Assembly: GCA_037308085.1 (NCBI GenBank)
Contig: CP147779.1
Location: 640,001 to 704,000, forward strand
Direction: 5' to 3'
Length of the DNA: 64,000 bases
Source: Promethearchaeati archaeon SRVP18_Atabeyarchaeia-1
GTDB taxonomy: Archaea > Asgardarchaeota > Atabeyarchaeia > Atabeyarchaeales > Atabeyarchaeaceae
Shown here: positions 12,586 through 16,523 of the stretch, in pieces
Layout of the letters: each line of letters opens with the position of its first letter
How positions within the stretch are numbered: position 1 is the stretch's first letter
Program-made: the position numbers and the translations under genes
Notes under the pieces: generated by a model
Databases searched by the model: none
Told to the model about the DNA's origin: nothing
Seen by the model: the letters and a program-made list of their open reading frames with translations, nothing else

Positions 12586-13083
12586 TTGCCCAAGAAGTCT
12601 GGTACCTGCCCGTATTGCATGTCTCGCTCGTTTGAGTTACGAGAGGCTGAAACCGTGCTACCCCATTTTGGCAGGGTCCTGATCATGACTTCTCTTTGCA
12701 GGACTTGCGGGTATAGACACAGCGATGTGACCTCTCTAGAGGATCATGGACCCAAGAGGTACGAGGTCAAAATATCGAGGCGAGAAGACCTTAGGATCAA
12801 GATTGCAAGAGCAGGCTCTGCCTCGGTAGAGATCCCGGAATTTGGGCTACGGTTAGATCCAGGTGACGATAGCCAATCGTTCATAACGAACATCGAGGGT
12901 ATACTGCAGAGATTCGAGGAGGCAATACTGCGACTCAAAACCTTGGATTCCAGCAAGACAGCTGAGCTTGACAATGAATTGCATAGAATTGCGGTTGCTA
13001 AGGAAGGGAAGATCCCCTTTACGGTAATAGTTGAGGACCCTCTGGGGAATACCACGGTAATTGATGACTACTTAGTCTCGTAG
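12586..13083 (+). CDS. ZPR1 zinc-finger protein
   Basis: CPYC...PHFG...CRTCGYRHSD, ITNIEG, EDPLGN. Confidence 0.9.
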   Translation: MPKKSGTCPYCMSRSFELREAETVLPHFGRVLIMTSLCRTCGYRHSDVTSLEDHGPKRYEVKISRREDLRIKIARAGSASVEIPEFGLRLDPGDDSQSFITNIEGILQRFEEAILRLKTLDSSKTAELDNELHRIAVAKEGKIPFTVIVEDPLGNTTVIDDYLVS

Positions 13084-13496: not shown

Positions 13497-13670
13497 CTAC
13501 AAAATTCCCAGATGCGCCAGAACCACGAGCACAATCAGGCCGACGGACATCATGGTGACCACTACGGGGCTGAACTTGACACCCTTCATCTCATCCTGAA
13601 AGAATCTCATCAAGCCGGCACCAGTGGCTGGCATGACTCCCTCTTCCCGTCTTCTTGCCCTTTTCGACAT
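13497..13670 (-). CDS. secG: Sec61beta/SecG translocon subunit
   Basis: Manual translation MSKRARRREEGVMPATGAGLMRFFQDEMKGVKFSPVVV...LAHLGIL; AGLMRFF..E...VK.SP signature; below the ORF-track length cutoff. Confidence 0.9.
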   Translation of the reverse strand: MSKRARRREEGVMPATGAGLMRFFQDEMKGVKFSPVVVTMMSVGLIVLVVLAHLGIL

Positions 13671-13838: not shown

Positions 13839-15205
13839 TTGGAAATTGATTCTGCCAAGCGAACGTATACGAAGATTAGGGATTTGTTGCGTGAACACCA
13901 TGAATGGTTTGATGCTAGTATACCTTTGATAGCTAGCGAGAATGTTCCGAGTCCTGCAGTTCGTGCAGCGGTCGCTTCAGATTTTGGCAACCGGTATGCG
14001 GAAGGCTGGCCTGGAGAGTAAGTGCTCGGCTCCAACTCTGAGCATTTTCCAGAAAGCGGGTCTATGCCGGTTGCAAATATATCGATCAGGTTGAGCTGAT
14101 TTGTAGCGACTTAGCTAGGAAGCTCTTCAAAGCCGAGTTTGCCGATGTTAGGCCCATCTCTGGTGTTGTAGCCAATCTGGCTGTTTACACAGCCTTCTCC
14201 GAGCCGGGAGACCGAATGATGGCGTTACCGATCCCCGACGGCGGACACATAAGCCACGCAAAGAGGTCTTTAGGCGGGACGGCGGGATCCGTTCACGGGC
14301 TTAGAGTCAGGTACTTCGAGTATGACGAGAACGAGCTCAACATCGATGTTGACAGAAGCATAAAGCGGATAAAGAAGACGATAAGCAAGGGCAAAGCCAT
14401 CACTCTGTTCATGTTTGGTGCTAGCGTCTTTCCCTTTCCGCACCCTGTCAAAGAGTTCCGGGAGATCGCTGATGAGATGGGCTCATTCATAGCATACGAC
14501 GGGGCCCATGTGTCAGGGTTAATTGCCGGTGGGTGCTTCCAAGATCCCCTGAGAGAAGGGGCTGACGTATTCTCCATGAGTACACACAAGACTATGCCTG
14601 GTCCGCAGGGAGGCCTCGTAGTTTCTTGGGAGAAGTACGCTGAGCGAATAAAGAAAGCTACATTTCCTGGCCTCACGAGCAACCATCATCTCAACACGGT
14701 TGCTGGAAAAGCGATAGCATTTGCCGAGATGATGGCATTCGGCAAGGAGTACGCTAGGCAGATTATTGCAAATGCCAAAGCTCTCGCTCAGGCCCTACAC
14801 GAGGAAGGCTTCAACGTGCTGGCAGAGCGTAAGGGGTTCACCGAATCCCACACTATATTGGTTGACATAACGGGCACTCCCCTCAAAGATGGTCGTGCCT
14901 GCGAGCAGGCCCTGGAATCATCAAACATAATCATCAACAGAAATCTCCTGCCTTGGGACATTCGGAAAGGTCGCAACTACCTTGCACCTGGGGGCATACG
15001 CTTGGGGACGAGCGAGGTAACAAAGTTAGGCATGAGAGAATCCGAGATGAGAGAAATAGCATCCCTCATTAGGCGCGTCATCATCGATCGCAAGAATCCC
15101 AATGACATGAGCCGGGTCGTAAAGGAATTTAGGCAGCCATTCAAGAAGGTCAAGTTCTGCTTTGAATCACAGGCTGACGCCTACGAGTACTTCGACATAA
15201 AATAG
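13839..15205 (+). CDS. glyA: Serine hydroxymethyltransferase, split by a 38-nt intron (exons 13839-14016, 14055-15205)
   Basis: LIASEN, RYAEGWPGE|RVYAGC, GGHISH, STHKT (PLP Lys), GIRLGT; in-frame TAA at 14019 lies inside the insertion. Confidence 0.93.
14017..14054 (+). other. BHB-type mRNA intron in glyA
   Basis: CTGG/CCAG 4-bp helix, AGA and AAA bulges, inner stem AAGTGCTC/GAGCATTT; canonical cuts restore the frame and GWPGERVY. Confidence 0.82.
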
Positions 15206-15231: not shown

Positions 15232-16523
15232 GGTTCTGTCAAGTCCTCGGTTGATGACCGTTTGAGCTGACTTCTCCGCTTTGGCTCACCGCCTTGTTTA
15301 AGGGTCGGATCACTGCTACACGTGCGGAGCGATCTAGGGTGAACCGCACCCTTTCATCTTGGATTTTGAGCATGTTCAAGCAGGCATTCACGTGGCGGTT
15401 TGTTCCGCAGCATTCTAGAGTTTTCGCTTTCGGGTCTTGCATCACGCACCCACACACCGCGCATACCCTAGAAGTGTTCCTCGGGTTTACCTTGATGGTT
15501 TGGACTCCTTCCCAGAGAGCTTTGTACTCGATGAAGCCTTGCAGCTTGCGGAAGCTCCACGAGTTCAGCCTCCGCTTCAGCCTCTTGGAGTGTATGCTAA
15601 TCCTTTGAATTCTCCCATTGAAGTTGTTGGCGCTTAAGACCTTGCGGTTGACTGCCTTGCGGATGTATGTGAGGTCTTCGAGGATAATGCCTTGCTCTCT
15701 ATTTTTCGCTTGCCTAACTATGGCTGAACTCACTTGATGCAGAACCGTGTTGACCTTGTTGTCCTGATTGGTGTACCAGTTTCTCTGAATCCTCTTCGCC
15801 ACCCGCCTGTCCTTAGCGTACTTGGCTTGAGCCCTTCGAACACGTTCGAAGTACCCGTGCCTAACCTCTGAAACCGCCGATAAATCATGGCTCTCGATAG
15901 TCAGTTCTCCACTTTCTTCTAGGCTAGCTCCATCAATTGAGCGCTCGTTCGTGTCGTACGCAACGTAGCTCTTGGGCTCGGTAACCTCAGCGATCTTCGA
16001 GAAAACCACTGTAACCGTGCAAGCAGTCAATGTGACCGAGCCTAACTTCAGCGAGGCGTCCGACAGGAACTGTACCGCCCTCTTATGAAAGGGGATGTAG
16101 AAGTACTCTCGCGGCTTGGTGGGTATCCTCAGCCTGCCGTCAACAACCCTATAACCCTGATTCCCAAGTTTAGCCGTGAGTTTCGTGGCCCTCGGCACTC
16201 GAATGCTCTGTCGCCTTCTCTTCGCTTTCCGGTGATTCTTCAGGATGGCAGTGGCAGCCTCGATGGCTGAGAGGCTGTACCAAGTGTGGAGACCGAAATC
16301 GCCTAGCCGGCGGTACACCTCGCTCTGCAGGCTGAACCTTGAACTAATGTTCTTCTCCAGACCTACACGGATGCAATAGTTAACCATGCTCTTGAAGGTC
16401 TCAAGGAGACCAAGGACACTGCTCGTAGGCTCGTATGGCATCTGCACCGCTTTGATTGCCTGCATAAAGTCATGTAAGCTAAACCACTCATTTAAACCCA
16501 CTAACCGAAGACTTGACAAAACG
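15232..16523 (-). mobile_element. tnpB-only element with 20-bp TIRs and perfect 8-bp TSD (copy 2)
   Basis: GTTCTGTCAAGTCCTCGGTT (15233-15252) / AACCGAAGACTTGACAAAAC (16503-16522), 18/20; GTAGCTTT duplicated at 15224-15231 and 16524-16531. Confidence 0.88.
15239..16465 (-). CDS. tnpB: TnpB RNA-guided nuclease family protein (intact ORF)
   Basis: RuvC-I YVAYDTN, Ruv[37 protein letters not shown]; ATG about 26 nt after TTTAAA TATA box inside the left end. Confidence 0.93.

What the first reader, a model, noticed from the sequence alone, without database searches (positions are those of the whole stretch)
14001..14066. Protein-coding gene glyA is interrupted by a BHB intron
Seen: SHMT stops at TAA 14019 immediately after YAEGWPGE and resumes in another frame as RVYAGC. 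The insert folds as central helix CTGG(14011-14)/CCAG(14049-52), bulges AGA and AAA, inner stem AAGTGCTC/GAGCATTT and a short imperfect outer helix. Canonical cuts remove 14017-14054 (38 nt) and give GGA GAG CGG, i.e. GWPGERVY with no residue gained or lost. The rest of the gene is intact, including the PLP lysine. Established: mRNA BHB introns are known mainly from crenarchaeal cbf5. Inference: a central one-carbon enzyme needs EndA/RtcB splicing, possibly as a regulatory link; annotation pipelines would miscall it a pseudogene.
Basis: partly seen in the sequence, partly recalled or inferred. Interest (0 to 1): 0.88.

Follow-up and report, generated by a model that had tools for sequence, protein, structure and literature searches.

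The report
Introns in Asgard archaeal protein genes
A core metabolic gene of an Asgard archaeon is split by a 38-base insert shaped like the target of the cell's tRNA-splicing enzyme, and at least eight other genes in the genome are split the same way, so these relatives of eukaryotes probably splice many messenger RNAs, although the spliced RNA itself has not been seen yet.

Summary
[quoted passage not shown] Removing it gives a stop-free 442-aa SHMT that aligns without gaps to an intron-free 442-aa close relative. The genome matches a complete Atabeyarchaeia (Asgard) genome. The same site carries a 38-41-nt insert in 13 related loci, covering all three frames. The central helix is invariant, paired synonymous bases are frozen, and both exons are under strong purifying selection. 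Artefact, pseudogene and ribosomal recoding are unlikely. The insert is not glyA-specific: a motif-free screen found 10 such inserts in 9 genes. They include single-copy valS and gatE, and cbf5 at the codon position spliced in Sulfolobus. A two-subunit EndA and RtcB are present. Other archaea carry different BHB inserts in glyA. Direct proof is missing: no spliced junction was seen, only one RNA contig starting exactly at the predicted 3' cut. A regulatory role is unsupported; tolerated accumulation fits better. In the searched literature, archaeal mRNA splicing is limited to cbf5 and one 5'UTR.

The parts
13839..14016 (+). glyA exon 1 (TTG start; codons 1-59 plus the first base of Glu60; carries the Tyr55 and Glu57 equivalents of the PLP/folate site)
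   Evidence: residue roles from PMC7916883; dN 0.04-0.12 against dS 0.8-2.0
14017..14054 (+). 38-nt BHB-bounded intron (phase 1)
   Evidence: same site in 13 loci
14055..15205 (+). glyA exon 2 (to TAG); PLP lysine codon at 14588-14590
14011..14014 (+). 5' strand of the 4-bp central helix (exonic)
   Evidence: invariant in 11 of 11 distinct sequences
14049..14052 (+). 3' strand of the central helix (intronic)
   Evidence: invariant in 11 of 11
14015..14017 (+). 5' bulge; predicted cut 14016/14017
   Evidence: cut rule from PMC2738675
14053..14055 (+). 3' bulge; predicted cut 14054/14055; its middle base varies freely among relatives
   Evidence: RNA contig of run X7 starts at 14055 (weak)
14003..14010 (+). 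outer exon-exon helix, 5' strand (pairs with 14056-14063; 7 of 8 pairs)
   Evidence: 98.7% of cells paired
14056..14063 (+). outer exon-exon helix, 3' strand
14018..14048 (+). intron hairpin (stem 14018-27 with 14040-48, variable loop)
   Evidence: 94.9% paired, two compensatory pairs
14019..14021 (+). in-frame TAA that ends translation of the unspliced mRNA after 60 codons

Best explanation
This is a BHB intron in an mRNA. The glyA precursor folds so that exon and intron bases form a 4-bp helix flanked by two 3-nt bulges. The two-subunit splicing endonuclease EndA cuts after the second base of each bulge (14016/17 and 14054/55), RtcB joins the exons, and the 442-aa SHMT is translated. Unspliced RNA stops after 60 codons. 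It is one of at least 10 such introns in 9 protein genes of this Atabeyarchaeia genome. They are most likely tolerated insertions that persist because a broad-specificity EndA already removes introns from over 90% of the tRNAs. Shown: sequence, fold, conservation, selection on both exons, presence of the enzymes. Inferred: cleavage, ligation, the identity of the ligase, and the neutral explanation.
For: Contiguous Pfam match across the cut. Gap-free alignment at 79.6% identity to an intron-free, syntenic 442-aa ortholog. Same site in 13 loci with lengths 38, 39, 40 and 41 nt, each breaking the reading frame by a shift or a stop. 97.3% of cells paired against 21-49% for slid controls; central helix invariant. 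RNAalifold recovers the outer, central and inner helices unprompted. Paired synonymous bases are frozen while unpaired ones vary. dN at most 0.12 with dS 0.8 to saturated in both exons. Motif-free screen: 5 of 10 frame-breaking inserts have a 4/4 central helix at the best-aligning boundary, against 1 of 71 ordinary in-frame indels (Fisher p = 5.6e-5). valS, gatE and cbf5 have no second copy. The cbf5 insert lies between bases 1 and 2 of the catalytic Asp codon, as in the spliced crenarchaeal intron. Two EndA genes and RtcB are present; the catalytic subunit best matches the A. pernix alpha chain and has a K-P-K loop like the specificity loop. One RNA contig begins exactly at 14055 (one run, weak hint).
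Against: No spliced junction was observed; the only RNA run had two short contigs, neither covering the junction. The strict BHB is not the minimum-energy fold. Only two pairs show compensatory change, and the sequences are kin, so the shuffle counts overstate significance. Three of the ten genome-wide inserts have only 3 of 4 central pairs, and the gatE motif lies 4 nt from the best-scoring boundary. A de novo motif scan showed no clear excess over a mirror-image control.
Confidence: 0.88

Rival explanations
1. Regulated splicing: the intron is kept because EndA/RtcB activity is used to tune one-carbon and methyl-cycle enzymes. This adds to the best explanation rather than replacing it.
For: The insert is retained across relatives whose synonymous sites are near saturation. 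Many host genes touch SAM, one-carbon or nucleoside salvage (glyA, ahcY, mtaP, pcm, a RuBisCO-like gene, a radical SAM gene in G002). The glycine-cleavage T-like gene lies next to the EndA beta gene (named from my own knowledge). cbf5 was proposed to be regulated this way (PMC2738675).
Against: A close relative lacks the insert. ahcY and radical SAM inserts are each present in only one of two genomes. valS and gatE are not in that pathway. Only the first 150 listed matches of 297 Asgard genomes were seen, but nearly all have an uninterrupted glyA. Retention is also expected for a neutral insert in a catalytic motif, since only exact loss is viable. Pathway enrichment was not tested.
Confidence: 0.2
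2. Translational recoding: the ribosome hops over or frameshifts through the insert, with no splicing.
For: A stop codon right after the last exon-1 codon inside a hairpin resembles T4 gene 60 bypassing (own knowledge).
Against: There is no matching landing codon (GAG against AAG or TAG). In G001 and L261 a TAG stop sits in the exon-2 frame directly before the resumed codon. Insert lengths fall in all three frames, so no single shift works. What is conserved is the pairing, not the codons.
Confidence: 0.04
3. Split enzyme, or cleavage without ligation: a 60-aa N-terminal peptide and a re-initiated C-terminal protein assemble, or EndA cleavage only triggers decay.
For: Gene callers list two products. 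The RNA contig starting at 14055 could be an unligated 3' fragment.
Against: The first ORF call in exon 2 starts at 14216 (residue 114), which would leave residues 61-113 untranslated, yet this stretch is 93% identical in L261 at dS near 2. valS and cbf5 are cut inside catalytic motifs with no second copy.
Confidence: 0.04
4. Pseudogene whose job is done by the second SHMT-like gene (G000:C1:84048-85322).
For: An intact-looking paralog with the PLP lysine exists.
Against: There is no other lesion, and both exons are under purifying selection. The paralog is only 38% identical and lacks the Glu57-equivalent motif. A second distant SHMT-like match also occurs in Asgard genomes with an uninterrupted glyA.
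Confidence: 0.02
5. Assembly or sequencing artefact.
For: The genome is metagenome-derived.
Against: An independent study's contig spans the insert with 0 differences. Diverged versions occur in 12 other assemblies.
Confidence: 0.005

Closest known systems
cbf5 pre-mRNA intron of Sulfolobales and Desulfurococcales (PMC2738675)
   Same: Short insert (16-44 bp there, 38 here) bounded by a relaxed BHB, inside a catalytic motif, between bases 1 and 2 of a codon, in a host with a hetero-oligomeric EndA. This genome's own cbf5 has a 41-nt insert at the same Asp codon position.
   Different: Different gene (a metabolic enzyme) and different phylum (Asgard). One of at least 10 per genome rather than one. 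Splicing was shown by cDNA there and is not shown here.
HVO_1309 intron of Haloferax volcanii (PMC7714728, PMC10485636)
   Same: BHB intron in an mRNA, processed by EndA.
   Different: It lies in the 5' UTR and does not break the frame; the enzyme is of the alpha2 type.
Non-canonical tRNA introns of Atabeyarchaeia and Freyarchaeia (PMC11291895; bioRxiv 10.64898/2026.10.13.758758)
   Same: Same genomes, BHB boundaries, repeated gains, same presumed enzyme, unknown route of arrival.
   Different: Term searches of those two papers found tRNA introns only. No sequence copy of the glyA intron was found elsewhere in the genome.
Archaeal rRNA BHB introns with homing endonucleases
   Same: BHB boundaries; insertion into highly conserved sequence.
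   Different: Far too short to encode a protein; no sign of mobility.
IRE1/RtcB splicing of XBP1 mRNA in eukaryotes (own knowledge)
   Same: A short frame-changing intron removed by a protein endonuclease and joined by RtcB.
   Different: Different nuclease and recognition structure; regulated there, no regulation shown here. An analogy, not membership.

Membership tests
Archaeal BHB (EndA-spliced) mRNA intron, cbf5 type | 4-bp central helix with two 3-nt bulges at the exon-intron borders (relaxed forms allowed) | tested here: met
   the 5' bulge competes with an alternative pairing about 3 kcal/mol lower
Archaeal BHB (EndA-spliced) mRNA intron, cbf5 type | Cuts after the second base of each bulge restore the exact conserved protein | tested here: met
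Archaeal BHB (EndA-spliced) mRNA intron, cbf5 type | Structure conserved while intron length and loop vary | tested here: met
Archaeal BHB (EndA-spliced) mRNA intron, cbf5 type | Host encodes a hetero-oligomeric EndA with catalytic residues and specificity loop, plus a ligase | tested here: met
   sequence only, the subunit arrangement is inferred
Archaeal BHB (EndA-spliced) mRNA intron, cbf5 type | Spliced mRNA detected in vivo | tested here: inconclusive
   no joint; one RNA contig starts at the predicted 3' cut; junction not covered
Archaeal BHB (EndA-spliced) mRNA intron, cbf5 type | Cleavage by the host EndA in vitro | not testable with these tools
   needs bench work
Group I/II self-splicing intron or homing-endonuclease intron | Ribozyme core or endonuclease ORF | tested here: not met
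   38 nt single hairpin; no Rfam match at the site
Translational bypass element (T4 gene 60 type) | Matching take-off and landing codons with an open frame at landing | tested here: not met
Pseudogene | Relaxed selection or further lesions | tested here: not met

The most novel reading that the evidence does not exclude
EndA/RtcB splicing of many mRNAs is a regulated layer of gene expression in some Asgard archaea, gating methyl-cycle, one-carbon and translation genes together. That would make it a prokaryotic forerunner of non-spliceosomal regulated mRNA splicing. The multi-gene splicing alone, without regulation, is much more likely (about 0.85).
Probability: 0.17. Interest if true: 0.96.

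Novelty: new variant of a known kind. Interest (0 to 1): 0.83.

Why it matters
A 2023 review counts two archaeal genes with mRNA splicing and expects more (PMC10485636). Here one Asgard genome appears to need splicing for at least nine proteins, including a tRNA synthetase, an amidotransferase and SHMT. Related inserts occur in another Asgard family and in Nitrososphaerota. If confirmed, coding-region introns are not rare in archaea, and they were tolerated in the prokaryotic group closest to eukaryotes without a spliceosome, which bears on how intron-containing genes arose. In practice these genes are annotated as fragments, so metabolic reconstructions and marker-gene sets for Asgard genomes can be wrong. 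The set also gives short natural substrates and dated gains and losses for the open question of how BHB introns arrive.

Tried and rejected
De novo genome-wide BHB plus ORF-join scan: about as many hits with mirror-image geometry (138 against 123 at the loosest cut, 6 against 6 at the strictest), so it was uninformative. Its best new candidate (G000:C1:1115909-963) had no support in the homology screen and by my recollection lies in a TldD-like C-terminus; it was dropped. A terminal-exon scan found no further protein-gene introns. The break at G000:C1:938450 has no BHB or consistent length and was read as a boundary between two hydrogenase subunit genes. Many 'stop' hits were antisense or rRNA artefacts. 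No significant second copy of any intron exists in the genome, so no source was found. A pattern search for a joined form in JGI contigs gave four intron-free hits, but they are distant (about 65% DNA identity; three group with Bathyarchaeia-labelled rows), so they are not spliced cDNA. The single read-laying run had only contigs and the RNA run did not cover the junction; the gap proves nothing. No joined form appeared in three DNA runs, which is weak evidence against DNA excision. Only 1.2 Mb of G002 and 180 kb of G029 were screened. The homology screen sees only genes with an Odinarchaeia or G002 homolog, so 10 is a lower bound. Ten literature searches of open-access papers and bioRxiv found no report of glyA or Asgard mRNA introns; subscription papers were not covered.

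Full report
Observation. The window is G000:C1:640001-704000. The glyA frame from TTG 13839 stops at TAA 14019 after 60 codons and resumes in another frame. The two halves match Pfam SHMT positions 6-55 and 56-399. The segment folds at z = -2.9, and a comparable motif occurs at 4e-5 of random sites. Caveats: three registers give the same product, and the strict BHB conformer is about 3.3 kcal/mol above the minimum-energy fold. The insert falls inside the stretch carrying the Tyr55, Glu57 and Tyr65 equivalents of the cofactor sites.

Organism. The relatives are Asgard lineages. In these genomes 92-95% of tRNA genes carry introns. ARAGORN finds only 22 tRNAs here, which fits.

It is real DNA and it is conserved. 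A contig from an independent study spans the insert with no difference. The same site is interrupted in G001, G002, L261 and L263-L271: 13 loci, 11 distinct junctions, 38-41 nt. All three length classes modulo 3 occur, and the 39-nt copy has an in-frame stop. Across the 11 sequences 97.3% of cells pair, against 21-49% when the partners are slid. The central helix never varies, two intron-stem pairs change on both sides, and the loop is free. RNAalifold finds the outer, central and inner helices unaided. Synonymous exon bases that pair are fixed (Pro, Gly, Glu and Val codons each single-valued in 11 of 11, but mixed in 65 intron-free genes), while unpaired third positions vary (kin are not independent). 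Both exons show dN 0.04-0.12 at dS from 0.8 to saturation.

The empty site exists. Proteins P0001 and P0002 (labelled Njordarchaeota in nr) are 442 aa, align gap-free at about 80% to the predicted spliced product, and P0001 sits in the same gene order. They group with intron-bearing L264 (96/91 support), which suggests exact loss, although the root was not tested. Among the 150 listed best matches from 400 Asgard genomes, only the three genomes of this family show an open frame under 100 codons for exon 1.

It is one of many. I aligned the proteome of an Odinarchaeia genome to G000, located frame breaks, and chose boundaries by protein alignment alone. Hairpin inserts of 22-54 nt break pcm, cbf5, valS, ahcY, glyA, gatE, a RuBisCO-like gene (twice), mtaP and a TIGR00375 gene (names). 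Five of ten frame-shifting inserts have a full central helix at the best boundary, against 1 of 71 ordinary in-frame indels (p = 5.6e-5; glyA itself is among the five). valS, mtaP and the first RuBisCO-like insert have 3 of 4 pairs and are less certain. Six sites are shared with G002 at the same exon position, with diverged intron sequence (48-68% identity against 78-92% in the flanks). ahcY is interrupted only in G000 and a radical SAM gene only in G002. valS, gatE and cbf5 have no second copy, so the cell must repair these messages. The cbf5 insert lies between the first and second base of the catalytic Asp codon, the position reported for the experimentally spliced crenarchaeal intron, which serves as an internal positive control.

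Beyond this family. Two genomes of Asgard family f14 carry three inserts in glyA at other positions (28, 26 and 29 nt), and one of them has a 32-nt perfect BHB in a gene I read as pyrG. Two Nitrososphaerota records carry 32- and 26-nt inserts four codons upstream of this site, on separate branches with intron-free sisters. cbf5 matches in two pieces in several Asgard families, but those sequences were not inspected.

Machinery. Two EndA genes and one RtcB are present. The catalytic subunit best matches the Aeropyrum alpha chain (E 5e-46), keeps the Tyr, His and Lys positions (triad assignment from my own knowledge), and has K-P-K where the crenarchaeal specificity loop has K44-P45-R46. The second subunit lacks that His. 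This is the enzyme type tied to relaxed substrates and to cbf5 splicing.

RNA evidence. One small metatranscriptome holds two 183-nt contigs. One begins exactly at 14055 with no loose end. That is what a cleaved 3' exon, or a branch between spliced and unspliced forms, would produce, but it is one run, contigs only, and no joint was seen. I count it as a weak hint.

Mechanism and rivals. The most likely mechanism is EndA cleavage at both bulges, RtcB ligation and translation of full SHMT (0.88). Ribosomal bypass or frameshifting fails on unmatched landing codons, a TAG in the landing frame of two relatives, and lengths in all frames. A split enzyme would leave conserved residues 61-113 untranslated. 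The pseudogene reading fails on selection, and the paralog lacks the Glu57-equivalent motif. For why the intron persists, tolerance is simplest: in a catalytic motif only exact loss is viable, and gains and losses are patchy. Regulation is not excluded, since host genes lean towards SAM and one-carbon metabolism, but this was not tested. Unexplained: 9 of 10 inserts are phase 1 (post hoc p = 3.6e-4), and no source sequence was found.

Novelty. The searched literature gives cbf5 and HVO_1309 as the only archaeal spliced mRNAs. Unconfirmed predictions of others are mentioned in PMC2738675. The Asgard papers treat tRNA introns only, as far as term searches show. The mechanism is known; the host gene, the lineage and the multi-gene scale are new as far as these searches reach. 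Verdict: new variant of a known kind, interest 0.83, pending junction reads.

Noticed in passing
G000:C1:305604-305631, 383798-383838, 443949-443979, 488226-488259, 2219068-2219108 (+); 2712781-2712760, 2712486-2712459, 980286-980252, 320569-320516 (-): Nine further BHB-bounded, frame-breaking inserts in pcm, cbf5, valS, ahcY, gatE, a RuBisCO-like gene (two), mtaP and a TIGR00375 gene.
   Followed up: yes
G002:C1:919059-919007 (-): 53-nt perfect BHB insert in an AmmeMemoRadiSam radical SAM gene, inside what I read as the cysteine motif; the G000 ortholog is intact.
   Followed up: partly
L026 and L028 (G029, G019; family f14); G029:C9:155043-155012 (-): glyA with three BHB-like inserts at other positions, and a perfect 32-nt BHB insert in a probable CTP synthase gene.
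   Followed up: partly
L095:1454-1485; L098:1460-1485: BHB-like inserts (32 and 26 nt) in glyA of two Nitrososphaerota records, at the same codon boundary as one f14 insert: a possible hot spot.
   Followed up: partly
e.g. G037:C1:1483287-1483666 and G013:C4:12525-12907: cbf5 matches in two pieces near residue 77 in families f18, f7, f17 and f15, and near residue 45 in genus g13; the sequences were not inspected.
   Followed up: no
G000:C1:450742-450774: 33-nt insert with BHB-like ends in what I read as the 16S rRNA 3' region, absent from G002.
   Followed up: partly
the ten G000 inserts: Nine of ten are phase 1 and all lie in strongly conserved motifs; inserts in the other lineages are phase 0 or 2.
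   Followed up: partly
G000:C1:84048-85322: Second SHMT-like gene (38% identity) with the PLP lysine but a three-residue gap at the Glu57 motif; function unclear.
   Followed up: partly
window 15239-16519 (-); window 4514-5788: TnpB (Cas12f1-like) gene directly downstream of glyA, absent at this place in G001 and G002; about a dozen related copies in the genome, one in three pieces at window 4514-5788.
   Followed up: partly
window 17493-22346 (-): DNA polymerase D large subunit with an intein carrying a LAGLIDADG-like domain; the ortholog in L263 is 1134 aa, about 480 aa shorter, apparently without it.
   Followed up: no
L131:1802-2950 (-), G000 near 624.6-625.7 kb: A gene resembling glycine cleavage T protein (by eye) converges on and overlaps the end of the EndA beta gene.
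   Followed up: no
window 58152-58493 (+); 52490-52578 (-); 13497-13670 (-); 12586-13083 (+): Archaeal SRP RNA, an intron-bearing tRNA, Sec61-beta and a ZPR1 zinc-finger gene; ordinary neighbours.
   Followed up: no
L068 near 1500: One-base frameshift in a Nitrososphaeraceae glyA with no hairpin; probably a sequencing error.
   Followed up: partly
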